Shown: positions 14,706 to 52,771, counted from the first letter of the stretch. The stretch: 64,000 nt of DNA from Lytechinus pictus (GCF_037042905.1 NC_087250.1:9922001-9986000); one strand, 5' to 3'. Program-made: numbers and translations. The notes: a model not told the origin generated them from the letters alone.

Positions 14706-14716
14706 CTGCAGGTAAT

Positions 14717-31359: not shown

Positions 31360-31445
31360 CTACTCGTGAGGGGAACTATACGATTCAGTCATCCTTTCGA
31401 ATTCATCAGTTATTCCTTGAACATATCCTTCAAGATCTCCTTCAT
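31360..31445 (-). CDS. Gene B terminal coding exon (acidic, Tyr-containing)
   Basis: Acceptor ccttatctttcag|, phase 1, reads (D)EGDLEGYVQGITDEFERMTESYSSPHE* with TAG at 31360-31362. Confidence 0.75.
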
Positions 31446-32181
31446 CTGAAAGATAAGGGAGAACAATACTCACATGGAGTCACTATTATCGTAATCACAA
31501 TTAACACTTTTGATAATGATAGAAATGGGATTTTTTTATTGATAGTCTGTTGTAACATATTCTTAGGTTGTCTGTTTTATTGCAGAACTCCCCATTTTTG
31601 CTCAAAATGTTCATATTATCTATTATCTACGAGTATTCTTATTTACTTACTCTCAGTTTGCGATCATGATATCTAAAAATCAGCCAGGTCAACATCTCTC
31701 GTTTCAATTTTGTACCCTCAATGGAGTGTATCATAAATAGTTCGTAAAGAGTTTTCCATGGTCATTAGATCACTCTGACGATATTTAGGGGTTCACGGTC
31801 AAAATATCAACACCACAATAATAAATCAAGCTATCAATGTACCAAAATGATATAACGACACAATATTACAAATTTGACACATTTCTCACCATATTTCTTC
31901 CTAAATTCCGAAAGTCTCGATCTTGTTTTAGCATGAGCGACATCAACTGTAATTTGGATTAAACAGGAATTTACAAATGCAATGAACTGGAAATTCAAGA
32001 GGAAAAAAGATGGGCTAGGATGGGGTGGGGGTATTATACTTATTAGTTCAAACATCATTTAGGAAGGGCTCTTAAACAAAAGAGAGGAAGATATAAATGC
32101 TCACAAAAAAGAAAGTAAAATCAATCTACGATAATCGAATTGTTTATAGAACAATACTAAACATATCCAAACTGAAGTCAC

Positions 32182-32223
32182 CTGTTTCGTTCTCAGGAGG
32201 CAAAGCATACTCAGCATCATCAT
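32182..32223 (-). CDS. Gene B 42-nt micro-exon (D)DDAEYALPPENET
   Basis: Pyrimidine tract then gaaacgtag|, and donor |gtgact; symmetric phase 1. Confidence 0.75.
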
Positions 32224-32264
32224 CTACGTTTCAAGAAAAAAGAGAAACGGAATAAGTGATAAGT

Positions 32265-32536
32265 GGAGCGTTGTGGCCCAGTGGATTAGTCTTCGGACTT
32301 TGAAACAGAGGGTCGTGGGTTCGAATCCCAGCCATGGCGTAATTTCCTTCAGCAAGAAACTGATCCACAGTGTGCTGCACTCAACCCAGGTGAGGTAAAT
32401 GGGTACCGGTAGGAAGTAATTCCTTAAAAAGCTGTGTGCGCTATGAACGCCTAGCTTAGCCGGGTAATATAGCGCCTTGAGCACCTAACAAGGTGGATAT
32501 GTGCGCAATATAAATATCCTATATTATTATTATTAT
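32265..32536 (+). mobile_element. Full-length tRNA-derived SINE
   Basis: A and B boxes, core and (ATT)n tail. Confidence 0.92.
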
Positions 32537-32592
32537 AAAGAGAGCAGTATGGATAACTATAACGTGATAATTATGTTGGTTTATGTCTGACA

Positions 32593-32652
<60 letters not shown>

Positions 32653-33459
32653 ATCACATATACATACATGTATATTACTGTGAAAGAAATGAATATGCAT
32701 ATTTCAATAAGATTTTCTATTCTATAGAGTTTGTCGGAACATCAGTGCCCAGTCCAACGAAGAGCTGCGATCGATCTGATCACTCGCATCTATGGATAAC
32801 CAGTAGTGTCACCATCTAAACTTCATGTGCGACATGAGTGATCAACATAATATATTTTCTAGATACATGTACGCAGTATTTTCCTAGTTATATCCCTCGT
32901 TTTCTTGAATATTCAAAAATTTTCTCTTTGTTGACAAAGGACATTGGACATAAGGGCATATTTCCTGTAGAATTTTTGGATTTTTAAGTTGATGGATTTC
33001 CATATAGTTTAAGTTGACTGGATCAATCGTAATTCTTTCGTAAGGCGGGGCCCAGGTGTTCTTTTTCATATAGGTTTCAAAACATTATACCATGGATGAA
33101 TCTTTTGTCACTTCATTAGAATGAGAAAAAAATATTTTGGGGCATATTTTCAGTGTTCAAAGGGGAAAGTCGTGTATTATTTTGTTACATTATATTTCTT
33201 GGTCGCATTACCAGTAGGAAGATCTCGACAGCGTTAGTGATCTCGACTTTCAAATGCTCATAACTTTTTATAGCTTGACCAGTCTTGCTCAAAGAATGAT
33301 TGATCTTCTTCTTGATTATTTTTTTCTGCTCTAACAAGCTTACTTGCTCCATGGGTTTAATTTTCGTTTGATGGAAGCCACTTCAGCATAGAAGATAAGA
33401 ACGGGTTTATCGTAAATCTGAGTAGTAACGCGCATAATCTTGTATATTGAAGAACAATA

Positions 33460-34265
33460 TTTGATTTGATTTGATTTGTTTCACATTCCACAAAAACATA
33501 CATCTTGATCATAATTATGAAAACATGACAAAAAATACATAGCTGTAGTATTTTACAAGGCAATACAATTGCGTGAAATATGTGGAACCTATTAAAAAGC
33601 AAAGCTTGTAGACATATAGGTTCCCAGAAGAAAATAATCAAGGATTAAAAACTCCTAACGCAATGAAGCGAGATAAATCAAATAAAAAGTTATCAGTACA
33701 TTATAAAGAGTTCTACATGATAGTCACTCCAGCAAGGCGCTTATACACTAGCGTAAGATTGTAAAAGAAATATTTCCAGCCTACATTTAAAATAATATAA
33801 AGAGGGCGCCTGAATTATATGAGTGTCTAAATTATTCCAAAAGGAAGGCCTTGTAAAAGCAAATGATTTAAGGGCAAGAACAGTGCGCACTGGGTAAATG
33901 TGGAAATTGTGTGCTTGTCGAGTTGGGTAGGAATGGATTTCTTGATTTTAAACAAGCAAATCAGAGAATACACTTGGTAATTCCTGTTTATTTAGTTGAT
34001 ACATAAATATACCAACAAAATAATAATATAAATCGGTTACTTTCAATAACTTGTTTGGATAAAATAGCGGAGTAGTATGAGCCAGAAAGTCAGATGAAGA
34101 AATTATTCTCACGGCTCTTTTTTTAAATTTTAAGTATGGATTCAAGTTTTGTCTTAGAGGCATTTCCCCAGGCTAAAATTCCATTATTCAGATATGGTAA
34201 CAATAAAGTAGAATACAATAATTTCAAAATGTGATGCGGAAAATCAGATTTGAGTTTATTAATGA
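33460..34265 (-). mobile_element. LINE (L2/Crack/CR1 group) 3' fragment
   Basis: KRAVRIISSSDFLAHTTPLFY...LLKVTDLYYY..MYQ is a typical ORF2 C-terminus, followed by an (AATCA)n-type tail near 33460. Confidence 0.8.
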
Positions 34266-35028
34266 CTCCAAGATGAAAGAATTTCTTTTAAAACGAACGG
34301 ATATTCATTGAAAAGAAAATAACCGAAAATGTAGTTCAATATTGTCGATTAGACAAGACCACATATTCTTTACCAAAAAAAGCTAAAAAGAATATAAAAT
34401 ATCAAAGACTATTAGATTCTTTGGCTAAGGCATGCTATAGTAGGATTGGTAGCAGTAGAAAAGTTCTTTATCTGTACAACCTATATACACGTTAGCCGTG
34501 TTCAGACGCAATCTGTTTTGGTGGGAATAAAGTCGGATCAAAGAAGGGCTGGAGGAAGACCAGTCAGAGTATAGTAAGGTAGGAGGAAATTGCAGAGTTG
34601 TGTCCGTCTAGACAGAGGTCATGTGCTTCATCCTACCTAGCTAATCCTGTTTTTTTCCAGGATCACGACTAGCCGGTCCGAGTAAATTACCCGTGTGGAT
34701 GTACGTAGTAGCTGTACTCGGAGTGTCTATGACCTTACGACCTCCCGTAAAACTTCCGGGGTCAAATTGCCATGATGATGATTGCCGCGTTTACACATTG
34801 CCCCGTCTCGCGGGGCAGACCCGAGATAGTTTTGAAAGTTCCATTGATGTTTGTATCCATTGGGTTTATCGTGGAATAAAGCATCGTTAAAAGTTATATT
34901 AGTAACTAGATTTGAACCTCATAAATATAAGTCTACCATCAGAAATATCAAAACTAATCTGGCAAAACAAAAATAGTAATAACAGTAGTATTACAAATGT
35001 TATAAGCAATAAAAGAAATCCGCATCAC

Positions 35029-35070
35029 CTGTACCGGAACTGAAATCTGAATTCATAGAGTAGCCGTCCT
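35029..35070 (-). CDS. Gene B 42-nt micro-exon (E)DGYSMNSDFSSGT
   Basis: Boundaries ttttcttggaacgcag| and |gtgatg; phase 1-1; acceptor context similar to that of the 32182-32223 exon. Confidence 0.75.
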
Positions 35071-35633
35071 CTGCGTTCCAAGAAAATAAAACCAAAGAGA
35101 AGTAATATTAACAGGACAGCCAATTACTAGGATTAGCTATAAATATCTGAAAAGAAATATTTACCGGATTCATGTATGAGAATTGAAAAATCCACAGTTG
35201 AAATACAGAAAAGATTATAGTTCTTATATGGTATATTGGGAATTAATCAGTGGTGTAACAGGCGGGGATAGGCCGCTCCCCCCCGTCGAGATAATTTATA
35301 GGCACTCATTTAGGGCCAACTTTAAAGAACATTCATTTTGATTCTTTGTTCCTTTATGTGTAACGCTAAATATGAACAAGATGACAATCAATAATTTATT
35401 GTTCAAAATAGAATTCTGCAACGTATCATTCAATTGAATATAATTGGTAAAAAACGTACTCGCGTTTTCGGGATAAAATACAGTATATCGTGTCTACTGA
35501 AGAAAAAAGTGAAAGTGGACCCCCCCCCCCCCCAAAAAAAAAAAACACCCCAAAACATGAGTGAAAATCAATGTTTCATTTTATATCAAAGCATGCAACA
35601 TTGTTCATAACGCTCATATGTTATAGTACTTAC

Positions 35634-35690
35634 CTGGATCAGCAAGCGGTGGTCTGTCTTGGATCACAGGTGGTTTTATGATACCAAAAA
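35634..35690 (-). CDS. Gene B micro-exon with shifted acceptor, (V)FGIIKPPVIQDRPPLADP
   Basis: Donor gtaagt. The AG used by its paralogues is deleted; an alternative attatcag 15 nt upstream keeps phase 1-1 (57 nt). Confidence 0.55.
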
Positions 35691-36487
35691 CTGATAATAG
35701 GGGTGTACAGACAGAAAGTGAGTCATTTTGGCAAAAAAAGAGGAAAAAACGCAAATGTCACAACTTGGAAACAAATCAATCTCCTGACATTTTACATGTT
35801 ATAAATAGCGCGCTTTTCGAAAATATCTGGCACAACGTAAACTTTACTAACTTTACTAATAGGATATCATGGTTAATTGTATTGAACAGGTTGAAAGCCT
35901 CGGAAAGTCCAGGAATAATGCAATAGTATGTAAATGTTGATCAACAGCATGTGATAATGTATCGATGCATTTCGCTACGAATTTGAAGTTGATTTTCCCG
36001 GGATTACAATTACTTTTAGAATAGCAAAATCGATTAAAGGGTTGTACAAAGTGTGAAACGAGTCATGAAAAAAAAATGTAGGAGAGCCCCATATTTGGAG
36101 CCCCATATTTTTTTCAGGAACAATAAATAATTCAAAGCATGAGTCGGTGGTGTATGCCGCAGTCCATATTCCTCGGTCACCCAATGCGCGCGTGGTAATT
36201 TATAGGCTCTCATTTAGGGCGACTATTCAAGAACATTCAGTTTGCTTCTTTGGTCCTTGCTTTATGTGTAACGTTAAAGATGAAACAGATGACAATCCAT
36301 AATTTATTGTTCGAAATAGAAGTCTGAAACATATCGTACAATTGAGTATCATTGGTAAAAAAAAAAACGTACTCTCGCTATCGGGATAAGATTATGATAT
36401 CGTGTCTACTGAAAGTGGAAGTTGACCCCCAAAACATGTGAAAATCATGCAACATTCTTTATAACGCTACTATGTTGTAGTACTAAC

Positions 36488-36529
36488 CTGGATCGTCAAG
36501 CGGTGGTCTGTCTGGGATCGCAGGTGATT
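36488..36529 (-). CDS. Gene B 42-nt micro-exon (E)SPAIPDRPPLDDP
   Basis: Boundaries catgatag| and |gttagt; phase 1-1. Confidence 0.78.
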
Positions 36530-37330
36530 CTATCATGTTTATAATAGCAAAAATTGATAAGAGGGGTGTACAGAAAGAAAATGAGTCATTTGGGAAAAAA
36601 AATAAAAAGTGCAAAAAGTCACAACTTGGAAACGAATCAATCTCCTGACATTTTACATATTATAAATAGAGCGCTTTTCGAAAATATCTGGCACAACGTA
36701 AACTTTACCAACTTTACTAATATGATATCATGGTTAATTGTATTGAACAGGTTGAAAGCCTTGGAAAGTCCAGGAATAATGCAATAGTATGTAAATGTTG
36801 ATCAATGGCATGTGATAATGTATCGAAGCATTTCGCTACGAATTTGAAGTTGATTTTCCCGGGATTACAATTACTTTTAGAATAGCAAAATCGATTAAAG
36901 GGTTGTACAAAGTGTGAAACGAGTCATGAAAAAAAAAATGTAGGAGAGCCCCATATTTTTTTCAGGAACAATAAATAATTCAAAGCATGAGTCGGTGGTG
37001 TATGCCGCAGTCCATTCCTCGGTCACCCAATAAGCGCGTGATAATTTATAGGCTCTCATTTAGGGCGACTATTCAAGAACATTCAGTTTGCTTCTTTGGA
37101 CCTTGCTTTATGTGTAACGCTAAAGATGAAACAGATGACAATCCATAATTTATTGTTCGAAATAGAAGTCTGAAACATATCGTACAATTGAGTATCATTG
37201 GTAAAAAAAACGTACTCGCGCTATCGGGATAAGATTATGATATCGTGTCTACTGAAAGTGGAAGTTGACCCCCAAAACATGTGAAAATCATGCAACATTC
37301 TTTATAACGCTACTATGTTGTAGTACTAAC

Positions 37331-37372
37331 CTGGATCGTCAAGCGGTGGTCTGTCAGGGATCGCAGGTGATT
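37331..37372 (-). CDS. Gene B 42-nt micro-exon (E)SPAIPDRPPLDDP
   Basis: Duplicate of the 36488 exon 843 bp away; the one exon difference is synonymous (CCA/CCT). Confidence 0.78.
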
Positions 37373-37720
37373 CTATCATGTTTATGATAGCAAAAATTGA
37401 TAAGAGGGGTGTACAGAAAGAAGGTGAGTCATTTGGGCAAAAAAAAGCGCAAAAAGTCACAACTTGGAAACGAATCAATCTCCTGACATTTTACATGCGC
37501 ACAATAGTTTAAAAAGCGCTTTTCGAAAAAATCTGGCACAACCTGAAGGGTAGTCATAGTTGGTGTATCCCCCACACCTCGCCTACCCGATCCACTTCTG
37601 ACAATTTTTTTATTCAACTACAAGAATATTCATTTTGCTACTTGTCCGCTTGTTAAGTGGTACAAAAAGGGGTTCATGCCCTTTTGAGACAACATATTTA
37701 GTCATAGTGTTCACTAATTA

Positions 37721-37752
<32 letters not shown>

Positions 37753-38013
37753 ATAATGATAACAACAAAAGCGTTGATAATAGCATTAAAAAATCAATGG
37801 CAGTGACAAAGAAAAAATACCTGAGAAATTACTTCATTTTATTTAACAATGAAGCTCAAGCCCTGATCATAATCAACGTGGATTTTCCTTTTTCCATGCC
37901 TTATAAGGAAATTAAATTAATCAAAATTTAGTAAAATAAATCAATACATGGTGATATTTTTTAAAGTAATTAGAAATAGAAGAATAGAATTCGACTGAAA
38001 AACAGGTTCATAC

Positions 38014-38064
38014 CTTGGTGAATAGGTGATGGTGCAGATGGTAGTGAGGACCGGATTGCAGGAG
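38014..38064 (-). CDS. Gene B 51-nt micro-exon (A)PAIRSSLPSAPSPIHQ
   Basis: Boundaries tgtcaaag| and |gtatga; phase 1-1. Confidence 0.72.
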
Positions 38065-38648
38065 CTTTGACAATCATAAAAATCGAAAAGAGGGATAGAC
38101 AAACACTGAGTCAATTTGAAAAAAAATCCCGAAAAGCAAAAATGTCACAACTCCTTAAACGGCACCCAACATAATTATGTAATCTCAACGGAGAGCCCTT
38201 TTCAACCCCCATCCCTACCCCTTGCTTGCCGAATCCACATCTGATAGTTTCTTGATTTAACGAGAATATTCATTTTCCTACTTGTCTGTTGGTTTAACTG
38301 TACACACACAAAAATTTCATGCTTTTGAGATTACATGCTAGAGGTAGTGTCCACTATCAATAGCAATAATAACAACAACAACAATACTAATAGTAATAAT
38401 AATGATAACAAAAGTTATGACAATGTTAATAATAATGATAATCAGCGACAGTTACAAAAAATACGTAAGAAGTTATTAATTCATTTTATTAAACAATTAA
38501 ATTCAAGCATTCGTCGTAATACTTGATTGTTCGCTTATGTTCCAAGCTTTATAAGAAAATCGAATTAATTCATATTTAGTGAAATAAATCGTATACATCA
38601 TTTTTTTCGAAATAAAAGAAAATAGAAAAACAAAGAACATGTACATAC

Positions 38649-38699
38649 CGCTGAGGTTAGGTGATGTCGGGGGTAGTGCTAGGGGCTGGATTGCAGGAG
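38649..38699 (-). CDS. Gene B 51-nt micro-exon (A)PAIQPLALPPTSPNLS
   Basis: Boundaries cattttttag| and |gtatgt; phase 1-1. Confidence 0.8.
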
Positions 38700-39313: not shown

Positions 39314-39363
39314 CTCTGAGGTTAGGTGATGTCGGGGGTAGTGCTAGGGGCTGGATTGCAGGA
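39314..39363 (-). pseudogene. Gene B pseudo-exon (PAIQPLALPPTSPNLR), severed from its acceptor by a transposon
   Basis: The exon body is intact, but its acceptor AG now lies at 43177-43178. The donor reads gtacat, versus gtatgt in the paralogues. Confidence 0.8.
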
Positions 39364-42300
39364 AAGTCAGGTCCAGATTTGAGAAAAGTAGACTGCCTTA
39401 GGCAAATCGTGTTAATGCTGAGTTGAGAAGTGTTTTAGCATAATTTGAGGGCGCTGTGTCCAAATTTGCTGTTTGCCAACCTTGATTTTGATGTTAAAAC
39501 CTCAAATTGGCAAAAACAATATGGCCGCCATTCTACACCCATTTTTACTCTATTCTGACCCCCAAAACTTGTAACAAAATGTTTATCAACGATTTTTGTT
39601 ACTATTTGATCTCAGGAATAGCATACTAAAGTCCACCAAAATTCGGATCCGGGAAAGTGGTTATTTTCAAGATGGCGTCTAAGATGGCCGCCATCAACTG
39701 AAAATTACTTTATCTACTAACAGTAGACACCTTTTTTGGTGCATACATGTATTCAGTGGTGTATGGGGTAAAAGGAAATAGTGAAGATAAGCACTCCAGG
39801 TTACCTGAAAATCAAAGATTGCGTAAAAATAGCTGTCATGGCCTAAAAATTCACACTTCTTCTATTACCTATTTTAGTGTCTTTTATTTGGGCTTTATTC
39901 ATTGGTGATTTTTAAGGGTGAAGAAGTAAACCGGGACAAATTACAAGGACGGTCAACGGTCCACTATGTCCAAAAATTCAAGATGGCTTTCAAAATTGAA
40001 TTCTAAAATAGCTGTTGTTATCTAAAAACCCTAAAACTCGACATAGTTTGTTCAATATCTGCCTTAGGGATGTGATGTTGGTGTCTAACCCATCGTTTAA
40101 TGGGTCAAGAAATACGGTGAGACAAGTAGCAAAGATAGTCAATGGTCCTCCATGTGTAAAAATCCAAGATGGTTTGCAAAAATGGAGTATAAAATGTCTG
40201 TCGTTAATTACAAACCGACATAGTTTATTTAATAACCGCCTGGAGAATATGATTTTTTTAGTATAACGCATGGTTTAAAGGGTCAAGTATTAGATTGGGA
40301 CAAGTTACAAGGACAGTTGGTGGTTCCAGTATGTCCAAAAATCCATAATGGTTTCCAAAAAAGGAGCCTATATTGGCCGTTCTTACCTAAAAACTGACAT
40401 AGTTTGTTTAATATCAGCCCGGGGTATATGATTATGTTGTCTAAACCTTAGTTTAAATGGTCAAGTAATACATTAGGATAAGTTACGAGGGCAATCAATG
40501 GTCTAAAAATCCAAGATGGCTTCCAATTAAGGAGTCTAAAATGGCTGCTGAAACTTAAAAATTGACATAATTTATTTAGAATCCATATGGGAGATATGAT
40601 TTTGGTGTCTACACTATGGTTTCAAGGGTTAAATAATATTTTTTGATTAGTTACAATGGTATGAAGCTGCCCATTTTACCTATTATTTAAAGATGGCTTT
40701 TAAAATGAATCTAAAAGACTTCCATCACCTAAACATAGTCATAATTAGGCGAACAAAATCTACACTTTTGTGGTTTGAAGGCTGAAATAATAAATCGGGA
40801 CAAATAAAAAGGATGGTCAGTTTTTCTTTTCGTCGTGAAAAGTCTAAAGCGACTTCTAAAATTGCGTAAAAATGACTGATGTTCCCTAATCCGTAGGACA
40901 GTTCTAAGCACATAAATGACATGTCTTGAAATTTTTTAAGGTGACAGTGTACCTTAGATTTTAAAGTTTGCTTTTCGGATGTTTACTTATTGTTGCACCA
41001 CCATCTAATTACGTCACAAAGTCTTGTAAAACATATTTTCACGAGTCTTAAAAACAGAGACACCAAAATAGTGGCACTAGATGGTTTATGATGTAAATTT
41101 TGAAAAAAAAATTTCTTCATTTTTTTACAAAATGGACAACGATGTATCCATGTAATTGGTCTTCACCTGTATCATTTGAACCTTAATACCATGAGAAAGA
41201 CATAAAAATGCTTATAGGTAGATAGTATATGCACTTTGCAGCCAGATTTTTAATAAATAATTATTTTTTATATAGGCCATCATCTTTTTTTGCAGAACTG
41301 CACCATTGATAAACCTTGAATTTTTTCAATGTAATTTTTTCCCTTTGGAACCATGATTTTTTATATGTTTTATTTTATTCTCGGTAGACCCCAAAGTTAT
41401 TTTTACCAGGTGTGTATATTATGAATTTGGACAATTTCAAAGATACAACGTCCAGACGTCCATTATAGACGTCATTTTGGAAGGTTATCTTTCATTCTCT
41501 GACACACTCACTGACTATCTTGTAAACCTGTCCAGAATTGCATTAAAACAAAGGCGCCAACAAATGTGCTATGATGACCGACTGCAGCTCTTAAATTGGC
41601 AATGTCTACATTCTCGCCGTAAATATTGTCTTATCTCTTATGTTGTGAAGTCATTGTTCCGTGTAATTGAATGTACTACTGTTGGGCGTGTCATTTCGGT
41701 AAATACTCGCCGAACTGATGAGGTGAGGTTCGTCCACCTCCGTGCGCGGACTCAGCGGTTGCATGGTTCGGCAATCAATGCATTTCCCCGTTATTTGGAT
41801 GAGCTCCCGGAGTCCTTGCGCACGGGGGTGGTCGAGACTTCCTATGGCTTGTAGCGCTTGGGCGTTACCTCCGCCAGCGCCCGATTTAAGCAAGTTGTTT
41901 AGTGTTTAATCCTTAAAAATTGTTTAGTGTTTAATTCCTTAGAAGTTAAGTCTTATTTTAAGTATTATTGTATAATTTTGGGTGCGTTCATAATTCCTTT
42001 GCCTGTGTCACCTTTTCCTTTCCCACCTCTCCCCCCCCCCTCTCTCTCTCTCTCCCACTCTCTCCTTACCTTTCTTTTTGTCACTTTCATTCAGCTTTCT
42101 TAATTCTCTTTCCCCGTCATTTCCACTCATTTTCAATTACAAGTAACTAAATTTATTTATGTATTTTATTAATCGCATGCTACACCCCTTTATATTATGA
42201 GTATTTTATTATTGTTTAGTTATTAATATATATTGTAAATCAACCATTGGAATTGGGACAGAAGGCTTCATGCCACAGTAATTAAGTTAACTTTTTCTGT

Positions 42301-42380
42301 CCCTGGCGTTCCAATTGTTGATATTTCTTATTTTGTATTGTTCACATTGAAATGTATTTTTGAATATTATTTGCCGAATA

Positions 42381-42416
<36 letters not shown>

Positions 42417-43172
42417 TCATTATTTGCCTTGAAAGCTTTTTGATGATTTTGATTTTGAGTATTTACTTTATTTTTGGAGTTGATGGTACAACGGCTGCCG
42501 TTGTGGACGCTATGCTGGATTTCCAGGTAACCTTGACGACCTTTTGTAACCATAACCTGTCTCAATAGATTTTATTTAATCCTAACATGCCTAAGTTTCA
42601 TGAAATAGACATCTATACCCTAAAAATTGTGACATTTCAAAAACTTAACCTCGGTTAAGATTTGATGTTGACTTCGCCGCCGCCATGGTCATCGCCGCCG
42701 TCGGAAAAGCGACGTCCATGTCTTGCTTCTGCTATGCAGGCAAGGAAAAAATGACGGACACGTCAAAGATATCACAATGTGAATATGCCAGCATCGCCCC
42801 AAAATTATCAAACATTTGGCCATATTATTGATCAATCAGCAGCTGTGAATCATGGCAGCCATCTTGGAATTAAAGATGGCTGACAAATCAATCGGACACA
42901 TTATGTTTGCAACCCTGGGTATCAAAAATAGATCCCAATTTCTGGAAAACAATCACCCATAAAAACAATTTAATGAGGGAAACTGCGTTAAAAATGCCGC
43001 CATTTTTTGTTTTGCCGATTTGAGGATGAAAACGTCAGAATCAAGCCTGGCAAACAACATTTTTGGATTCAGCACCCCTGAACTACCTTAAAACAATTGA
43101 TAAATCAGCATTAACACAAAATGCCTAAAGCGCTTTTTTCTGAGCACATTTTTTAAAATCTGGACCTGACTA
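39364..43172. mobile_element. ~3.8-kb non-autonomous TIR transposon (Academ-like termini) with 3-bp TSD GGA
   Basis: Ends read GGA|AAGTCAGGTCCAGATTT ... AAATCTGGACCTGACTA|GGA, with ~170-bp imperfect TIRs and internal ~180-bp tandem units containing AAAATCCAAGATGG. Confidence 0.82.
41470..41900 (+). mobile_element. LINE ORF2 3' fragment nested in the TIR element
   Basis: YDDRLQLLNWQCLHSRRKY..ISYVVKSL resembles the CR1/L2-group C-terminal region. Confidence 0.7.
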
Positions 43173-43187
43173 GGAGCTTAAAAATAA

Positions 43188-44397
43188 TATTTATTTATTT
43201 ATTCAAATATATTTATTCAGGATGACGAGATCAGTTAAAAACTATTTTACATCATGGTCCTGACATTAAAAACATAAATACATGTAAAGAATAATATATT
43301 TAAGATAAGCTAAAAATCAAAGTAATATCTAAAAAATGTGCTTAAAGAAATACAATGCAATACAAGAAAATTTACAATATATTATACAAAGAAATAAAGT
43401 AAATATAATTAAATTTAAGTATTTAACAACGAATTAAAGTACAATATATAGAGACAAAGTATATGAATTAATGGTTACAGAACTATATAAAAATCGATAA
43501 AAATTAGGATAATAAAAAATATTCAGAAGTTAAACACTGATATGAGATAGAAATTAAAAAAAGTGGTATAATTTACATAAAAGTATGAGAATACATAAAC
43601 AAATTGTGTTTCATGTATTTATGAAGCAAACTGAATTATAATTTAAAAAAATGATATATAATAAATTGTAACGAATAACTACAAAGATATAGGTACTATA
43701 AGAAAGAAAACAATGTTTGGATCGAAGTGTATTTGAACAAAATGGTATATAAAATGAACATGAGGCTGCATATTGGGGTTTGGGTTACAATTTCTTTCAT
43801 TAAACAATTAAAACTGTCAGGTAATGTAGTACATATGAACTGCACATCAGGGTTTTAGAATTAATTTCTTGTATTTGAATTTAAAATTATCGGGTGATGT
43901 TGCATTTTGGAGACTGGGTGGAAGCTCGTTCCATATTTTAGCATCAGCATATTTAAATGATTGTTTGAATAATTCTAGCTTAGGTTTAGGGATTATTACA
44001 TTTAAAGATTCGGCGTTTCTTGTGTTAAATCCATGGCGGGCACAATACATCTCAATTTCATCACATAATCGTCCAGGACCAGTGCCATTAATGCATTTGT
44101 ACATAAGTGTTGCAAGAAAGTAGTTGCGTCTTTGTTCAATGTTTGGCCACGACAATTCCGTCATTAACTTAGTTCCATTGTATTTCTCATAATCAAAGTT
44201 TTTCGTGACTATTCGTGCTGCTCTTTTCTGTGTTCTCAACAACTTCTTTTTGTAAACTTCTGGGCAATTACCCCATACAGAGCATGCATAATCATAGCAT
44301 GGTTGAATTGTGGATTTATAAAATATGTTCAATAAGTTAGAGTTAACAAATTTACTAAGTTTGGCAAGAATATGGACTTTGTATGCGACAGATTTAC
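43188..44397 (-). mobile_element. 5'-truncated LINE (L2/Crack-like) with RT C-terminus and 3' UTR
   Basis: ORF 43847-44446 has FYKSTIQPCYDYACSVWGNC..QKRAARIV..YKCING..KIWNELP. An (AAAT)n tail lies near 43190-43204, and host intron sequence resumes at ~44398. Confidence 0.9.
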
Positions 44398-44549
44398 AAA
44401 AATCGAAAAGAGGGATAAACAGAAGCGAAACAAACGGCCGCAACATATATATATATATATTGTGAATTAAGAGCGCTTTTCAAAACTGTCGGGCATAAAG
44501 AACACTTCAATGGAGGAATAGGTGGTGCTTCTACCCCCCCCCCCATATA

Positions 44550-45902: not shown

Positions 45903-45919
45903 TATGCACATACACACAC

Positions 45920-45968
<49 letters not shown>

Positions 45969-46016
45969 CATGTATATATAATATATATAATATATGTAAT
46001 ATATAATATATAATAT

Positions 46017-46049
<33 letters not shown>

Positions 46050-46560
46050 TCTCAAATGAGAGCGCTTTTCAAAACTGCCTGGGGTAACGAACACTTCAAG
46101 GCAGGAATATGTGGTGCATCTCCCCCACCCCCACCCCTTAATGCTTACCGGATCCACATCTCACAAATTGTTGATTCAACTAGAATATTCATTTTTCTAC
46201 TTGTACATTGGTTTAATTGTACCAAAAAATAATACTTTTGAGATTACTTGCTAGGGGGTAGTGCTCACTATTAAAATATAAATAATGATAATAATAATAA
46301 CAATGATATGTAATAAAAACAATAATAAAATTCAGCGGCAGTGACAAAAAAGAAAATACCTGAGAAATTATAACTTCATTATGTGAAACATTAAACAATT
46401 TAATTCAAGCACTCGTCTATTATGTCGATCGTTCGCTTATGTTCCATGCTTTAGAAGAAAATTGAATTAATTCAGATTTAGTGAAATAAATCATATGCAT
46501 AATTTTTATCGAAAAATGGGAAATAAAAGAACCGAAATCGACTAAAGAACATATACATAC

Positions 46561-46611
46561 CTCTAAGGTTAGGTGATGGCGGGGGTAGTGTTAGGGGCTG
46601 GATTGCAGGAG
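46561..46611 (-). CDS. Gene B 51-nt micro-exon (A)PAIQPLTLPPPSPNLR
   Basis: Boundaries tttttcag| and |gtatgt; phase 1-1. Confidence 0.82.
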
Positions 46612-47302
46612 CTGAAAAATAATGAAAATCGAAAAGAGGGATAAACAGAAAGCGAATCAAACGGCCCCGACATATATATTCTCAATTAAGAGCGCTTTTC
46701 AAAACTGTCAGGCATAACGAACACTTCAATGGATTAATAGGTGGTGCTTCTCTCCCCGCAATATATACATGTGTATATATATATATTCTCAATTGAGAGC
46801 GCTTTTCAAAACTGTCAGGCATAACGAACACTTCAAGGCAGGAATATGTGGTGCATCCCCCCCCCCCCATCCCTTAATGCTTTTCGGATCCACATCTCAT
46901 AATTTCTTGATTCAACTACAATATTCATTTTTCTACTTGTACATTGGTTTAATTGTACCACAAATGATACTTTTGAGATTACTTGCTAGGGAGTAGTGCT
47001 CCATATTAATAAAAAATAATGATAATAATAATAATAATAATGATATGTAATAACAGCAATAACAATAATAATAATTGTATTCACACTAATAATAATCAGC
47101 GACAGGGACAAAAAGATAATACTTGAGAAATTATTACTTTATAATATTAAACATCAAGCACTAGTCTTTTATGTTGATCGTTTTCTTATGTTCCATGCTT
47201 TCGAAGAAATTGAATTAATTCAGATTTAGTGAAATAAACATTATTTTTGTTGAAATAATGGAATATAAAAGAATCAAAATCGACTAAAGAACATGTACAT
47301 AC

Positions 47303-47353
47303 CTCTGACGCTAGGTGGTGGCGGGGGCGGTAACCGGGACCGGATTGCAGGAG
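47303..47353 (-). CDS. Gene B 51-nt micro-exon (A)[16 protein letters not shown]
   Basis: Boundaries tttttctaag| and |gtatgt; phase 1-1. Confidence 0.75.
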
Positions 47354-47506
47354 CTTAGAAAAATTTTAGAAATCGAAAATAGGGATAAACAGAAAGCGAA
47401 TCAAACAGCCCCGACATATACATATTCGCAATTAAGAGCGCTTTTCAAAACTGTCGGGCATAACGAACACTTCAATGGAGGAATAGGTGGTGCTCCTCTC
47501 CCTGCA

Positions 47507-47537
<31 letters not shown>

Positions 47538-47541
47538 TATG

Positions 47542-47599
<58 letters not shown>

Positions 47600-48103
47600 T
47601 ACATGTATCTATATGCAGCAATGGAGATACACACCTGAAAGTCGACCCTGAGTCAACCGACTTGAAGTCAATTTACTCAGGGTCATGTTCAGAAATTTTG
47701 CTTTTCGGATCCACATCTGATAAATTCTTGATTCAACTAGAATATTAATTTTTCAACTTGTACATTTGTTTAATTATACAAAAAATAATACTTTTGAGAT
47801 TACTTGCTAGGGGGTAGTGCTCCCTATTAATAAAAAATAATTATAATAATAATAATAATGATAATTATATCCATACTAATAATAATCAGCGACAGTGACT
47901 AAAAGAAAATACTCGAGAATTACTTCATAATATTAAACATCAAACAATTAAGCTCAAGCACTCGTCTTTTATGTCGATTGTTTGCTTATGTTCCATGCTC
48001 TAGAAGGAAGTTGAATTAATTCAGATTTAGTGAGATAAACATTATTTTTGTTGAAATAATGGAATATAAAATAATCGAAATCGGCTAAAGAACATGTACA
48101 TAC

Positions 48104-48154
48104 CTCTGAGGTTAGGTGGTAGCGGGTACGGAAACCAGGACGGGATTGCAGGAG
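48104..48154 (-). CDS. Gene B 51-nt micro-exon (A)PAIPSWFPYPLPPNLR
   Basis: Boundaries tttttctaag| and |gtatgt; phase 1-1. Confidence 0.75.
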
Positions 48155-48323
48155 CTTAGAAAAAAAATTAAAAGTCGAAAATAGGGATAAACAGAAAGCG
48201 AATCAAACGGCCCCGACATATATATATATATTCGCAATTGAGAGCGCTTTTCAAAACTGTCGGGCATAACGAACACTTCAATGGAGGAATAGGTGGTGCT
48301 TCTCTCCCCGCAATATATATATA

Positions 48324-48809
48324 GGGGAAGGCGGGGTAAGTGTTGACACTTTTTGCATTTTGCATGTTAAAATTGATATGACTAATAATATTGTAGAAAT
48401 AACTAGGCCCGGGACGAATGTCAATTTTACCAGTCGATTAGTTCTTTAAAAAAACAATCGAATGTTCGATTGTTCGTTGGAAATCACGTCTTCTAGGCCA
48501 ATAGTTGACCTACTTGTGACGACCGCCCGAATAGGGTTTTTCAATTATTGAACATCTAGGGTAGAGTACTATCTGTTCCTTATGAATCAAATTGGGCCTT
48601 TTATTCCCCCTTCTCCTTGATTTCTATTTCAAAAGAAACTATATGAAATGAGATTAAAACTTTCACTTCATTGTTCCACTGAAAAACAGGGTTATGTAAT
48701 GGGTCATCAATACATGACACCACCACAATGTCTGACTCATTCATTATTGGCCGGGGGGGGGGGGGGGTGGCTCAACTTGCCCCTATGCTCAACTTACCCC
48801 GCCTTCCCC
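48324..48809. mobile_element. MITE with TA TSD (pogo/Tc1-like)
   Basis: Ends read TA|GGGGAAGGCGGGGTAAG ... CTTACCCCGCCTTCCCC|TA. Confidence 0.85.
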
Positions 48810-48819
48810 TATATATATA

Positions 48820-51800
48820 CACAACAAAAAAAGTAAGTCCCCCTTGAACAAACATCAATAATTTCCGAACCAATGCGAGTTTTTGATATATTTGTACATG
48901 AGCGTGTAGGTAATTTTATAAGCTACCCTCTGAGGAAATGTTATGGAAGTATTTTACGTCATGCTTCAGTGAGCACCGTCAGAAGGAAAAAATGTCACTT
49001 TTCATAAGTCACAAACCAAAAATCATGACTTTGATGCCATTTGATTGGAACTGATTCCACATTCTCATCATAAAAAATAGTCAGGCGGCTTGTAAAAGGA
49101 ACTTTCTAAAAGACGATACGATTTTTTGGCTAAATTTCACGGTTGAATAAACACAAGTCCAAATTTGCCATAATTGGATTTTTTTACACATTTTCATCAA
49201 TAAAAATGATAGACTATGATGACAGTTATTTTTGTGAAGAGTACATTCAACAATATTCATCGTTTCACGGTTCAATGAACATTTATTGAAAACAAAAAAT
49301 ACGATTTTCAAATATCATAGGCAAGTACCGTTTCATTTTGGTAACTGAAACTGATCTTTTATCAACTTTTTCGTTATGTTCATGACCAATTAAGATGCTT
49401 CAATGAGTCAAAGGCGTTTAATTAAACATTCACGCTTGAATAAACACGTGGAATGTGATTAGCTCTTTTTTCCGTTATCGGAAAAAATGCAACTTGTAAC
49501 TATGGATATCTGTCACAAACCTCCTTGCATGGTTCATAAGTAACCCCTTATTCAATATGGGGGAACTTTTTCAAGGCTGTCTTTAGCAATGTCATTTGGC
49601 AGTAATCTTTATCAACCTATGGGCAGAATTCTGTGCAAAAATGAAATCGATTTGTTTATCTAAGGATAAATGAGCACGCATCAAACTGAGAAAATGGGTA
49701 TTTTCAATGCCACAGACTCATCTTAAAGGGTAATAAGGTGAATATTGGGGGCAAATTCGGTTTCAAATGTGACTTTAATTGCTGTTGTTTTTATCATCCA
49801 TCATTTCTATCACCACACACTTACCAAACTTAACATTTTCATGGTTGAGCGAGCACAATCGAAAACTAAGGAATGAATACTCTTTATACTGCATAACTGT
49901 ATTCTTTTCCTAACAATTTTTCATGATCAGTTTAATTTATGGACAAATCAGTGGTGGATCCAGAATTTGAAAATGAGGGAGGGGCCTATAATCGGGGGAG
50001 CCACCGACATTTTCAAATTTTAATATGACCTAACAAGTTATTGATGATACTGTCACATTGAAAATACATTTTATTTTATTTATTTATTTGTCCTTTTTTT
50101 GCTAAACTATTTAAACTTATCTTGTACTCTAGCCAGGTTGCAAAGAGACAGGAATTTGATTTGATTCTTCAATGAGCAGAACCTCTTTAATTTAGGTTGC
50201 CATCGATGACCATAGCTAATTGAAATAGTTACTTTTGTCCAGGGCAGTGGATTTTTCCATGCCGTGCTTGGATAGGTCCCTTTTGTCCCAGGTAGGAATC
50301 CATTCCTTTTGACCAGCTGCTTGGGATAGTTTAGGGCAAGGGTGTGTGTGCAGTAGTTTTCCATTAGGTTTGGCAGACACCATTTTTAACTTCGGTGAGC
50401 ACACAGCTTATGTGCAGTTCTGAAGCCAGTAGAGAATTTGCTATTTTCTTTTGCTTACCATTCTGAAGGCATATCTCTAGGCTTTTTTTCTTTTGGAGCA
50501 GCCTTATTTTCCAGTTTGTGAGCTGCTAATCTTTATTACCTGCATGAGGTCAGAAAGCAGTTTTTAAATCATTTTTTTGCCTGTTTTGCTGAAACTCATC
50601 ACTGGTGCCAAGTTGGGACGTAATTCCCCGAGACTTCTGGTTATTGAAGCCGAGCACTTCCGAAAGTCGCGAAGGACGCCGAGATTCCCCGAGAGTTACC
50701 GAACAAGACTTTGGTGACGTATACACGTGATTGTTTGTCGAACTGAAGCAGGAATATATGAACTATGAACACTGATGAGAATGATAATCTGATGGACATT
50801 AATAGTTTAGAAACTTGATTTTATAAGGGAACTTTCAAGATATGTTGCTTTTTATTTTATCTCCTTGACTGATGTTGAATATAAATACTTGTGTTCGTGG
50901 ATGGATCAATACAGGATCCTCACAGTTGATGTAAGTGCTGAGATGAGGCAACCGATGTTTAAAAGGGAAAGAAGACAGTTTTAACAAAAAAAAACTGATG
51001 ATAACAGCGAAGTTGATATTATATTTGAATTTATGATGTTCTTGGCGAAATGATAAACTGCATGGAGTTCGCAGTATTGTTTGAAAATGAAATGTTTTAT
51101 AATGATATGTGATTAGAACAAAGGGTCGAGAAGCTTTTGACTTAAGTGTTATATTGGTTATATTATATTTGAATGTGAGTCAGGTTATGAGTGGATCAGT
51201 ACAGGATCCTTCATAGTTAGAGTGAGTGGTGTTATTGAAAAATAAAACAATTGTTTTGATGATATGTTAAAGATAGACAAACTTTGAAACAGGTCGATCA
51301 AATGTACATTCAGTTGTAAAGATATATATATATATATATATCAGTTTTGGGTGTCTCGAGACAAGGTAAATTTGAAGTGGAAATAAATGATATCTTTTTG
51401 AGAATCTACATTGTATTTTTTTTTTGGTCCTGAATTTTATCAGAAAGAAACAATTTTTATTTCTAATTGTAAACCAACAAAATTATACTGAAATAAATTG
51501 TAAATAATATCATACTGAATGGCACAAGTTTGACGTGAGTTTTATTTGAGTATATCCATGTGACAGATACTACCAAAATCCCTATGATGAAACGTCACAA
51601 TACAGGGGCCGCGGAACGGTTTTCAAAGTGCGGAGGAGGGGCTGATCCAAAAGTGGGGGCTGACCATGCAAAAAATTACAATCGTATGGTCATTTTTACA
51701 TTTTTGTACATGGTTTTGGAAAAAAGTGGGGCCCCACCCCCGCTTCCGCGGCCCCTGTGATATTGTGCTCACTCAACCATGAACATACGATATCAAAATT

Positions 51801-52089
51801 GTGTGTGGAGTGGCTAAATGATGAATAGCAAAACAGCATAACACCATAAAATTCACCTAAAATCAACTTTTGCCCAACTTTGTATTTGCACAATCTGAAA
51901 AACGACTCTTGTGACTTTCAAAAATGGTCATTTTTAATTCAATCTTTAATTACTCAAGCATGAATCAACCGATCAATTTCATTTGCTTAATGAGTGTAGA
52001 AAACCACCTACGAAATATCATATCTCAAAATAACTCCGTTCAAAAGTTACAGTAATTTGATATAGGGGGAACTTACTTTTTTTGTTGTG
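48820..52089. mobile_element. ~3.3-kb TIR element inserted in (TA)n
   Basis: Ends read TA|CACAACAAAAAAAGTAAGTCCCCC ... GGGGGAACTTACTTTTTTTGTTGTG|TA; the gene B repeat-unit intron resumes at ~52110. Confidence 0.82.
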
Positions 52090-52298
52090 TATATATATAT
52101 ATATATACATATATTCTCAATTAAAAGTGCTTTTCAAAACTGTCGGGCATACCAAACACTTCAAAGCAGGAATAAGTGGTGCATTCCCCCCCCCCATCCC
52201 TTAATGCTTACCAGATCCACATCTCATAATTTCTTGATTCAACTACAATATTCATTTTTCTACTTGTCCATTAGTTTAATTGTACAAAAAAAATCATG

Positions 52299-52340
52299 TT
52301 TTTTGGCTGTTAGTCGCTGGTCTGTTCAGGATTGCAAGAG
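52299..52340 (-). pseudogene. Degenerate gene B exon copy (A)LAILNRPATNSQK, donor deleted
   Basis: ttcaaag|CTCTTGCAATCCTG.. is homologous to the CTCCTGCAATCC exon start; no GT donor occurs before a stop. Confidence 0.55.
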
Positions 52341-52771
52341 CTTTGAATAATTATAATAAAAATGGAAAAGAGGGCTAAGTTTGGATTTAAGTTTGGTTTA
52401 ATCTCATCTCAACTATGAAATATGATAGTACAAAGGAAATAGGTAAAAGTTTATAGTATATAACTAATAATATTTAAAAAAATATATATATATATAATTA
52501 TTAAATATGAAATACATGTAAAATATTCTCGATAAGACATTCTGTAACTGAGTGTCTTTTTTTGTTCCAACATAAAGCAGAGCCTTGGATGGAGAATGGA
52601 GAAGCGCGAGCTTATTTTGTTTTTATTTTCCGACCTGAAATTTGACATTTTAAGCACGTTTTAAATATGACGAACAGGATATGTATCCCAAAAATCCACA
52701 CGAGCGCAAAGCGCAAGTTTCCTCTTTTATTTAGAACTATAGATACGGGGCATTTTAAACACATTTTGACG

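What the first reader, a model, noticed from the sequence alone, without database searches (positions are those of the whole stretch)
31360..52340. One-motif-per-exon signalling tail built by tandem micro-exon duplication
Seen in sequence: ten GT-AG-flanked micro-exons (42, 51 or 57 nt, all symmetric phase 1), two dead copies and a terminal exon. Together they splice in frame to ..[188 protein letters not shown]. Established knowledge: PAIPDR matches the class II SH3 ligand PxxPxR, and Tyr preceded by acidic residues is typical of tyrosine-kinase/SH2 docking sites (YALP is a YxxP motif). Inference: this is a disordered cytoplasmic tail or adaptor, reminiscent of LAT/SLP-76-style scaffolds. Its SH3-ligand valency could be tuned by exon copy number and by frame-preserving exon skipping, making it a possibly undescribed diversifying signalling gene. 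The ORF track does not capture it.
Basis: partly seen in the sequence, partly recalled or inferred. Interest (0 to 1): 0.88.

Follow-up and report, generated by a model that had tools for sequence, protein, structure and literature searches.

The report
Sea urchin proline-rich micro-exon gene
This is a real but uncharacterized sea urchin gene whose small, mostly disordered proline-rich protein is stitched together from eleven tiny exons made by repeated local duplication, an already known way of building such proteins.

Summary
On the minus strand, 13 coding exons splice to 774 nt and reproduce letter for letter a 257-aa public protein. The source names it XP_063956809.1, "uncharacterized protein LOC135154502 [Lytechinus pictus]". 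Eight exons (five of 51 nt, two of 42 nt, one of 57 nt) sit in homologous 0.65-0.86 kb exon-plus-intron units, so tandem duplication is shown. One copy was killed by about 5 kb of inserted DNA at its acceptor, and another by an internal deletion.

The model has no signal peptide or membrane span, so it is not a receptor tail. Residues 1-208 are predicted coil and the last ~45 form a confident helical hairpin. It matches no Pfam family, no solved structure, and no relative of 141-2000 aa. The only other hit is an unrelated L. pictus model sharing just the first-exon peptide.

SH3-type motifs are present (2 PxxPxR, 1 RxxPxxP), but function, expression and exon skipping are untested because no reads could be laid. 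Verdict: a new member of a known kind. Interest is modest.

The parts
50233..50383 (-). First coding exon (ATG at 50383; 151 nt; ends in phase 1; donor GTAACT). Encodes MVSAKPNG...STALDK.
   Evidence: tblastn of P0001, exact splice check, sequence. Nearly the same 50 residues (94-98% identical to the window ORF) head an unrelated L. pictus short-chain-dehydrogenase model on another contig.
48104..48154 (-). Micro-exon A1, 51 nt, phase 1-1, (T)PAIPSWFPYPLPPNLR
47303..47353 (-). Micro-exon A2, 51 nt, [17 protein letters not shown] (holds RLPPPPP, an RxxPxxP match)
46561..46611 (-). Micro-exon A3, 51 nt, APAIQPLTLPPPSPNLR
44399..44543 (-). Orphaned upstream flank of an A unit: the first half of the unit whose exon is the dead copy at 39364
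   Evidence: blastn places A3-unit positions 540-638 and 6-47 here. Unit positions 62-630 continue at 39363-38774.
39365..44398 (.). About 5.0 kb of inserted DNA that split one A unit at its acceptor. It holds two long ORFs (43847-44479 minus, 41357-41854 plus) that I read, from recall only, as non-LTR retrotransposon remnants. It also holds a 168-186 bp tandem repeat at 39960-40670.
   Evidence: Pfam found no family in either ORF.
39314..39364 (-). Dead A copy. The 51-nt body is open (..PAIQPLALPPTSPNLR) and the GT donor is kept, but the first base is changed and there is no AG acceptor.
   Evidence: It is not part of P0001.
38649..38699 (-). Micro-exon A4, 51 nt, APAIQPLALPPTSPNLS
38014..38064 (-). 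Micro-exon A5, 51 nt, APAIRSSLPSAPSPIHQ (acceptor caaAG, donor GTATGA)
37331..37372 (-). Micro-exon E1, 42 nt, ESPAIPDRPPLDDP (a PxxPxR match)
36488..36529 (-). Micro-exon E2, 42 nt, same peptide as E1. It differs from E1 by one synonymous base.
35960..36130 (-). Degenerate half-unit inside the E2-V intron (a counterpart lies in the E1-E2 intron). It is an old copy of the acceptor flank without a usable exon.
   Evidence: local alignment score 50 against a shuffle mean of 17.1, z=12.8; alignment
35634..35690 (-). Micro-exon V, 57 nt, VFGIIKPPVIQDRPPLADP. It is an E-type unit that lost the E acceptor and uses an AG 15 nt upstream. The PxxPxR match is lost.
35029..35070 (-). Micro-exon Y1, 42 nt, EDGYSMNSDFSSGT
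32182..32223 (-). Micro-exon Y2, 42 nt, DDDAEYALPPENET (a YxxP match)
   Evidence: Likeness to Y1 is weak and limited to the acceptor (z=3.0).
31890..31946 (-). Micro-exon K, 57 nt, VDVAHAKTRSRLSEFRKKY. It forms the first predicted helix.
31360..31445 (-). Terminal coding exon with stop, DEGDLEGYVQGITDEFERMTESYSSPHE*. It forms the second, amphipathic predicted helix.
52093..52378 (-). Dead unit upstream of the first coding exon. It has an A-like acceptor flank, an exon start CTCTTGCAATCC followed by an E-like body, then a deletion straight into the distal intron part. There is no donor.
   Evidence: z=12.8 to A3, z=9.0 to E2

Best explanation
The region is the whole coding part of a real, lineage-restricted protein-coding gene, LOC135154502 of Lytechinus pictus by the public record. 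It has 13 coding exons on the minus strand, and 11 of them are 42-57 nt, phase 1-1 micro-exons.

How it was built (shown): a single ancestral exon-plus-intron unit was duplicated in tandem, most simply by unequal crossing-over between units. This produced an A type (51 nt, five live copies) and an E type (42 nt, two live copies, plus one that shifted its acceptor to make 57 nt). Every exon is symmetric and a multiple of three, so each gain or loss kept the reading frame. Copies that lost a splice site dropped out.

What it makes: a 28-kDa soluble protein.
- Residues 1-208 are predicted coil.
- Residues 51-182 are 33% proline. They repeat a fixed (A/S)PAI start followed by a variable proline-rich body.
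- Next comes an acidic, tyrosine-bearing stretch.
- The last ~45 residues form a confidently predicted helical hairpin whose second helix is strongly amphipathic.

What it does (inferred, not shown): I think it most likely acts as a cytoplasmic multivalent ligand for proline-recognition domains (SH3, possibly EVH1, WW or profilin). The C-terminal hairpin would serve as the docking or self-association end.

My odds: the gene is real and duplication-built, about 0.85. The adaptor function, about 0.3.
For: Gene and product:
- Splicing the 13 exons from the window gives 774 nt whose translation equals the 257-aa P0001 exactly.
- P0001 was found blind, using only the 39-aa ORF around the terminal exon: 100% identity over residues 230-257, E=2.8e-9 against 1.84 billion representatives.
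- Its sources name it XP_063956809.1 / LOC135154502, Lytechinus pictus.
- All 12 introns are GT-AG, and all 11 internal exon lengths are divisible by 3.

Duplication:
- Exon and intron align across six A units and three E units.
- E-unit flanks hit A units at 71-82%.
- The dead copy at 52.3 kb has an A-like flank and an E-like body.

Constraint on the exons:
- 0 of 51 exon columns are gapped in five live copies, against 141 of 505 flank columns. Only 3.4% of 51-nt intron windows are gap-free.
- The first 12 nt and the splice sites are invariant in the live copies.
- Exons are 53-69% G+C inside flanks of 28-30%.

Protein properties:
- AlphaFold2 on the single sequence gives coil with pLDDT 40-61 for residues 1-208. 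It gives helices 209-230 and 234-251, with block means of 83-93 over residues 221-250.
- The second helix has a hydrophobic moment of 1.65, reached by 0 of 1000 shuffles.
- There is no hydrophobic segment: the 19-residue maximum is 0.54 and the N-terminal 9-residue maximum is -0.03.
- Motif matches: PAIPDR twice, RLPPPPP once, LPPPP once, YALP once (patterns recalled).

Against: - No read-level evidence of transcription or of any junction was obtained here. The public model is a computed one, and I could not see what it rests on.
- No relative was found in any other species, nor a paralogue, among proteins of 141-2000 aa. Shorter proteins were not searched.
- The first coding exon, the only source of a start codon, is nearly identical to the head of an unrelated L. 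pictus model on another contig. The N-terminus may therefore be a duplicated or mobile cassette, or a wrong choice by the model.
- Among the exon copies almost all differing codons are nonsynonymous, for example A1-A2 with 0 synonymous and 7 nonsynonymous.
- Over all five copies the exon is no better conserved than the introns: 26/51 against 170/364 variable columns, p=0.65. So there is no sign of purifying selection on the residues, only on length, the splice sites and the first four codons.
- Only 3 canonical SH3-type matches occur in 132 proline-rich residues. Such short patterns match by chance often; PMC3632108 itself notes very high false-positive rates for linear-motif prediction.
- The structure prediction used one sequence only.
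Confidence: 0.55

Rival explanations
1. A young, effectively neutral transcribed locus. A duplicated or mobile first-exon cassette landed in an old array of splice-competent repeat units and drives a chimeric transcript. Its frame is open mainly because the units are copies of one open, symmetric unit. The product has no selected function.
For: - The exon-1 peptide is shared with an unrelated dehydrogenase-like model on another contig (94-98% identical to the window ORF).
- Remnants of the array lie upstream of exon 1, at 52.1-52.4 kb and faintly at 56.9 kb.
- No orthologue or paralogue was found.
- Codon differences are nearly all nonsynonymous, and exon divergence is equal to or greater than intron divergence.
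- Two dead copies show that the array is decaying.
Against: - Exon length is kept with no indel in five live copies, while 28% of flank columns are gapped.
- Acceptor, donor and the first 12 nt are invariant in the live copies.
- Exon families that differ in length or were not shown to be copies of each other (A 51, E 42, V 57, Y 42, K 57 nt) are all multiples of three and all phase 1.
- The non-repeated C-terminal exons encode a confidently predicted amphipathic helical hairpin. That is not expected of random sequence.
Confidence: 0.25
2. The annotated start is wrong. The micro-exons are the 3' part of a larger gene whose true 5' exons, for instance an extracellular and transmembrane part, lie upstream, possibly beyond the window.
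For: - Array remnants lie upstream of exon 1.
- Exon 1 looks like a duplicated cassette.
- The window ends 13.6 kb upstream of exon 1, so a distant 5' exon cannot be excluded.
Against: - The public model starts at 50383.
- None of the 119 minus-strand open frames of at least 35 aa between 48.1 and 64.0 kb matches a Pfam family above its cut-off. The best E-value was 0.005 and all scores were below cut-off.
- No protein of 451-2000 aa in the 5.8-billion set carries the tail. That call itself warns this is weak evidence.
Confidence: 0.1
3. A secreted or extracellular proline-rich repeat protein, such as a matrix or biomineralisation component, rather than a cytoplasmic one.
For: - Proline-rich tandem repeats are common in extracellular matrix and spicule-matrix proteins (recalled, not tested here).
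- The next gene downstream on the same strand has EGF and C-type lectin exons.
Against: - The model's N-terminus has no hydrophobic core (9-residue maximum -0.03) and no membrane span.
- The lectin/EGF exons lie beyond the stop codon and belong to another gene.
- The product has a single cysteine, in the first-exon peptide (sequence).
Confidence: 0.05
4. An annotation artefact: no such mRNA exists.
For: - No read evidence was obtained here.
- The cluster has one member from one contig.
Against:
- Eleven consecutive GT-AG, phase-matched, 3n exons are G+C-rich islands in A+T-rich introns. It is my inference, not a test, that an ab initio predictor would hardly chain them without spliced alignments.
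Confidence: 0.05

Closest known systems
Disordered proteins assembled from symmetric exons by internal tandem exon duplication (Schad et al., Nucleic Acids Res 2013, PMC3632108; abstract and found passages read)
   Same: - Mostly disordered product.
- Successive exons of one phase class that are homologous to their neighbours.
- Proline-rich and SH3-type short motifs repeated once per exon.
- Frame kept by symmetry.
   Different: - That work is a statistical survey of human genes.
- Here the exons are unusually small (42-57 nt).
- The introns are still alignable, so the duplications are recent enough to read directly.
- The gene has no detectable relative.
Titin PEVK exons (Muenzen et al., G3 2019, PMC6469411; found passages read)
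   Same: - A long run of short exons encoding a proline-rich, unstructured segment.
- Expansion and contraction by tandem exon duplication.
- Mobile-element insertions remodelling the array.
- Some exons with signs of positive selection.
   Different: - PEVK is an internal spring segment of a giant, deeply conserved muscle protein.
- Here the array makes up most of a 257-aa orphan protein.
- There is no sequence similarity, and no PEVK-type composition (P 22%, with few E, V or K in the tail).
Schistosome micro-exon genes (MEGs) (bioRxiv 10.1101/2023.06.21.545858; abstract and found passages read)
   Same: - Gene made of 10-20 very short symmetric exons (3-81 bp) separated by introns of 0.1-5 kb.
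- Lineage-restricted.
- Hard for automatic annotation.
- Transposable elements nearby.
- Elevated nonsynonymous change reported.
   Different: - MEG proteins are secreted and carry a signal peptide. This model has none.
- MEG variation by alternative splicing is documented (35 genes, at least 87 proteins). Here one protein form is on record.
- There is no sequence similarity.
- The phylum is different. A full-text search for 'micro-exon gene' together with 'sea urchin' found 0 papers.
LAT / SLP-76-type tyrosine-phosphorylated adaptors
   Same: - Disordered.
- Several short docking motifs.
- Acidic-context tyrosines (DGY, AEY, EGY).
   Different: - No membrane anchor as in LAT, and no SAM or SH2 domain as in SLP-76 (0 Pfam families).
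- No YxN motif.
- No homology.

Membership tests
Schistosome-type micro-exon gene (MEG) | Most of the coding sequence is in symmetric micro-exons of 81 bp or less, separated by much longer introns | tested here: met
   11 of 13 coding exons are 42-57 nt and phase 1-1, making 537 of 774 coding nt (69%). Introns are 235-7861 nt.
Schistosome-type micro-exon gene (MEG) | N-terminal signal peptide; secreted product | tested here: not met
   The best 9-residue Kyte-Doolittle mean in the N-terminal region (windows starting at residues 1-35) is -0.03, and the best 19-residue mean anywhere is 0.54. This was a hydropathy check only; no dedicated predictor was run.
Schistosome-type micro-exon gene (MEG) | Protein variation through alternative use of the micro-exons | not testable with these tools
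   No reads could be laid. Only one protein form is on record.
Schistosome-type micro-exon gene (MEG) | Sequence relationship to a MEG family | tested here: not met
   No hit other than itself and the exon-1 sharer among proteins of 141-2000 aa. 0 Pfam families.
Disordered protein built from tandemly duplicated symmetric exons (class described in PMC3632108) | Neighbouring exons homologous and of the same phase class | tested here: met
   Unit alignments; all internal exons are phase 1-1.
Disordered protein built from tandemly duplicated symmetric exons (class described in PMC3632108) | Encoded region predicted disordered | tested here: met
   AlphaFold2 on the single sequence: no secondary structure in residues 1-208, with 10-residue pLDDT means of 40-61. 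The ESM Atlas model has mean pLDDT 0.46. No dedicated disorder predictor was available.
SH3 class II / class I ligand | PxxPx[KR] or [KR]xxPxxP core | tested here: met
   PAIPDR at residues 138 and 152; RLPPPPP at 74. The patterns are recalled. This is a pattern match only.
SH3 class II / class I ligand | Actual binding to an SH3 domain | not testable with these tools
   This needs peptide arrays or pull-downs. The complex predictor was not available.
LAT/SLP-76-type adaptor | Membrane anchor (LAT), or SAM plus SH2 domains (SLP-76) | tested here: not met
   No hydrophobic span; 0 Pfam families at E<=1.
Titin PEVK segment | Part of a titin-like giant protein with flanking Ig domains; PEVK-rich composition | tested here: not met
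   The product is 257 aa and has no domains. In the tail P is 22%, E 6%, and V and K are not among the eight commonest residues.

The most novel reading that the evidence does not exclude
This would be a deuterostome counterpart of the schistosome micro-exon genes. The locus would make a variable set of proteins. The number and identity of proline-rich modules would differ between individuals through unit gain and loss by unequal crossing-over. They would differ between cells through frame-preserving skipping. The bodies of the exons, but not their (A/S)PAI start, length or splice sites, would be under diversifying selection. That would be a new way for an echinoderm to vary the valency of a signalling or recognition scaffold.
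Probability: 0.1. Interest if true: 0.7.

Novelty: new member of a known kind. Interest (0 to 1): 0.35.

Why it matters
The locus is a very clean, still-legible example of how a disordered, motif-bearing protein grows. One exon-plus-intron unit was copied at least ten times. The introns are still alignable. One acceptor shift changed the exon length by 15 nt. One copy was killed by an insertion exactly at its acceptor, and another by a deletion.

It also shows what selection keeps in such exons: length, phase, splice sites and the first four codons. The residues in between are left free.

L. pictus is used as a genetically tractable urchin, going by the title of PMC12516323 in the listing and by my recall. 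An orphan gene of this build could therefore be tested directly. Practically, it shows that ORF-based scanning misses such genes entirely.

If exon number or usage proved variable, the interest would rise considerably. As it stands, this is an uncharacterized but already annotated gene built by a known mechanism.

Tried and rejected
- **Read evidence.** So no junction, isoform or expression evidence of any kind was obtained.
- **Own genome.** None is held. There A and E units occur only between 35.3 and 52.4 kb, plus a faint 78-nt match at 56.9 kb. Exon 1, Y1 and K are single-copy in the window.
- **The search for homologous proteins with the terminal exon.** It was replaced by the search of protein representatives with the 39-aa open frame. 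The other three hits of that search (P0002-P0004) are unrelated repeat proteins.
- **Searches that gave nothing.** All returned no hit:
  - Pfam on P0001.
  - Pfam on 119 upstream minus-strand frames (all hits below cut-off).
  - Pfam on 26 further frames of both strands in 31-53 kb.
  - Solved-structure sequences.
  - ESM Atlas by features; by structure every TM was 0.21 or less.
  - Rfam.
  - ARAGORN.
- **Fold search of the model (pdb_via_wide, result).** It covered only residues ~200-257, with best Z 5.1, which the tool's own notes rate as a common helical arrangement. Helical hairpins of many unrelated proteins are tied, so no fold assignment was made.
- **scan_promoters_terminators.** This is a bacterial-type scan and is irrelevant to a eukaryotic gene, so it was disregarded.
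- **Earlier findings of this scan.** Nothing by place, sequence or words.
- **Literature.** 'LOC135154502' found 0 papers. It was also absent from the text-held supplements of PMC12443524 and PMC12516323; one file of the latter could not be read. 'micro-exon gene' plus 'sea urchin' found 0 papers.
- **Y1 and Y2 as duplicates of each other.** Only the acceptor flank is alike (score 25, z=3.0, within the shuffle maximum of 30). Not shown.
- **CpG decay as the cause of the faster exon change.** Exons are G+C-rich with CpG o/e 0.43-0.97, lower than the flanks in 4 of 5 copies. I did not classify the substitutions by context, so this stays open.

Full report
**What is there**

The window is A+T-rich eukaryotic DNA, 31-42% G+C in 2-kb steps. 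I read the splice sites directly. The five 'APAI' exons are each 51 nt and the two 'ESPAIPDRPPLDDP' exons are 42 nt. The 'VFGIIK...' exon is 57 nt and the two acidic tyrosine exons are 42 nt. All are bounded by AG and GT and all are in phase 1-1.

**Independent confirmation**

No tool accepted a stitched peptide. I therefore searched 1.84 billion representative proteins with only the natural 39-residue open frame around the terminal exon.
- The best hit, P0001, is 257 aa and is 100% identical over its last 28 residues (E=2.8e-9).
- Its sources call it XP_063956809.1, 'uncharacterized protein LOC135154502 [Lytechinus pictus]'. It is a cluster of one, from one 28.5-Mb contig.
- Mapping it back and splicing 13 exons by coordinate gives 774 nt whose translation is identical to P0001.

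- An eleventh micro-exon, K (31946-31890, 57 nt, VDVAHAKTRSRLSEFRKKY), lies between Y2 and the terminal exon.
- A first coding exon lies at 50383-50233.

Micro-exons make up 537 of the 774 coding nucleotides.

**Built by tandem duplication: shown**

- Six A units align over exon and intron. The pairwise identity of the 330-nt downstream flank is 69-92%.
- Three E-type units align at 79-98%.
- E-unit upstream flanks hit A units at 71-82%, and both exon types begin with CCTGC(A/G)ATCC. All eight exons therefore descend from one unit.
- Each E unit also contains a degenerate half-unit (z=12.8).
- Exon V is an E unit that lost the E acceptor and uses an AG 15 nt upstream.

The two 'dead copies' are real.
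- Copy 39364-39314 keeps an open body and a GT donor but has no acceptor. Its missing upstream flank lies at 44543-44399, contiguous with it in unit coordinates (positions 6-47 there, 62-630 here). About 5.0 kb of inserted DNA therefore split this unit exactly at its acceptor. I read the long ORFs inside the insert as non-LTR retrotransposon remnants from recall only; Pfam names nothing.
- The copy at 52378-52093 has an A-like flank and an E-like exon start, then a deletion into the distal intron. It lies upstream of the first coding exon.

**What selection keeps**

In the five live A copies the exon has no gapped column (0 of 51). In the flanks 141 of 505 columns are gapped, and only 3.4% of 51-nt intron windows are gap-free. 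The acceptor AG, the donor GTATG and the first 12 nt (the APAI codons) are invariant. Exons are 53-69% G+C in flanks of 28-30%.

The residues behind APAI are not conserved.
- Nearly all differing codons are nonsynonymous (for example 0 synonymous and 7 nonsynonymous for A1-A2).
- Among A1-A3 the exon varies more than its flanks (17/51 against 57/400 columns, Fisher p=0.002).
- Between A3 and A4 it varies less (4/51 against 89/416, p=0.02).
- Over all five copies it does not differ from the flanks (p=0.65).

I read this as constraint on length, phase, splice signals and a short motif, with a free or possibly diversifying body. The data do not separate positive selection from relaxed constraint or a composition-driven mutation bias. 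The copies are not independent, so the p-values are indicative only.

**The product**

- P0001 is 28 kDa with pI 5.2 and has no hydrophobic segment: the best 19-residue mean is 0.54 and the N-terminal 9-residue maximum is -0.03.
- It matches no Pfam family at E<=1 and no solved-structure sequence at E<=10.
- Residues 51-182 are 33% proline. Residues 183-210 have net charge -9 and two tyrosines. K is basic (+4), and the terminal exon is acidic (-8).
- AlphaFold2 on the single sequence gives no secondary structure for residues 1-208 (pLDDT block means 40-61). It gives two helices, 209-230 and 234-251, with block means of 83-93 over residues 221-250.
- The second helix is strongly amphipathic (0 of 1000 shuffles reach its moment), and the first is not.
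- A fold search matched only generic helical hairpins, with best Z 5.1.
- Recalled motif patterns match as follows: PxxPxR twice (the two identical E exons), RxxPxxP once, LPPPP once, YxxP three times. There is no PPxY, YxN or YxxM.

**Relatives**

Searching the 5.8-billion-protein set with P0001 found only two proteins among those of 141-450 aa: itself and P0005. Among proteins of 451-2000 aa it found none. P0005 is a 148-aa L. pictus model named 2,4-dienoyl-CoA reductase-like, on a 70.6-Mb contig. It shares only the 50 residues of the first coding exon, which are 94% identical to the window ORF. The rest of it is a short-chain dehydrogenase fragment.

The only start codon of the model therefore sits in a sequence that exists at least twice in the genome and heads two unrelated models. 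Together with the array remnant upstream of it, this makes the 5' end the weakest part of the model. A duplicated or mobile first-exon cassette, or a mis-chosen start, are both possible.

No domain-bearing exon was detectable upstream in the window, on the other strand, or in the introns. No RNA family or tRNA was found.

**What I could not do**

No reads could be laid on the locus, no genome of the organism is held, and the complex predictor was unavailable. Transcription, junction usage, isoforms, copy-number variation, genome-wide dispersal of the unit and orthologues in other urchins therefore all remain open. That the public model rests on spliced RNA alignments is my inference: an ab initio predictor would hardly chain eleven 42-57-nt exons. 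It is not something I saw.

**Comparison with known systems**

The principle is in print. Mostly disordered human proteins tend to be built from symmetric exons that often arise by internal tandem duplication, with SH3-binding motifs over-represented (PMC3632108, abstract and passages). Titin's PEVK segment is the classic large case, including remodelling by LINE insertions and some positively selected exons (PMC6469411, passages).

In gene architecture the closest thing is the schistosome micro-exon gene family, with 10-20 symmetric exons of 3-81 bp and introns of 0.1-5 kb (bioRxiv 10.1101/2023.06.21.545858, abstract and passages). But MEG products are secreted and demonstrably varied by splicing. 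This model fails the signal-peptide test, and the splicing test could not be run. It works like these systems at the level of gene construction, but it is a member of none.

Nothing in print names this gene, and no paper links micro-exon genes with sea urchins, within the library searched.

**Verdict**

It overreaches on the rest, namely the receptor tail, the LAT/SLP-76 likeness, the claim that the gene is undescribed, and diversification by skipping.

The locus is an already annotated but uncharacterized, apparently lineage-restricted gene and a new member of a known kind. Interest is modest (0.35). It would rise if exon number or usage proves variable.

Noticed in passing
window 13784-14050, 14461-14745 and 17585-18037, minus strand: Exons of a separate downstream gene on the same strand. 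There is an EGF-like domain (E=3.5e-9) and the C-terminal half of a C-type lectin domain (E=6.4e-7). The frame at 14461-14745 looks like the N-terminal half of the lectin domain, but Pfam did not call it.
   Followed up: partly
window 50233-50383 (minus) and protein P0005: The 50-residue peptide of the first coding exon also heads an unrelated L. pictus dehydrogenase-like model on another contig. That model lacks the start of the adh_short profile: its match begins at profile position 23. This suggests a duplicated or mobile first-exon cassette.
   Followed up: partly
window 6432-6761, 8119-8555, 30990-31277, 32224-32484 (minus-strand frames); also about 14880-15119: A dispersed short repeat whose translation repeats '...EITPWLGFEPTTLCFKVRRLIHWATTLH...'. 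It looks like a SINE. One copy lies just past the stop codon of the gene and one lies in the Y1-Y2 intron. ARAGORN and Rfam call nothing there.
   Followed up: partly
window 43847-44479 (minus), 41357-41854 (plus), 33948-34172 (minus): Long open frames inside introns that resemble, from recall, the C-terminal part of non-LTR retrotransposon ORF2 proteins. Pfam gives no family.
   Followed up: partly
window 39960-40670: A tandem repeat of 168-186 bp units, four copies at 63-76% identity, inside the DNA that split the dead A unit.
   Followed up: no
window 2014-2370 and 23034-23402, minus strand: Two nearly identical open frames ('...KYYSFIEYVRGVVMEDTLLFKYSLFEIVEANNKICHRFGCLL...') lie 21 kb apart. 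They are a repeated segment of unknown nature.
   Followed up: no
window 25420-25906, both strands: Similar open frames on opposite strands ('STRRLKPASPHQLYYS.CSQLINFP.LQSFSGLLSRKNTLL') suggest an inverted repeat.
   Followed up: no
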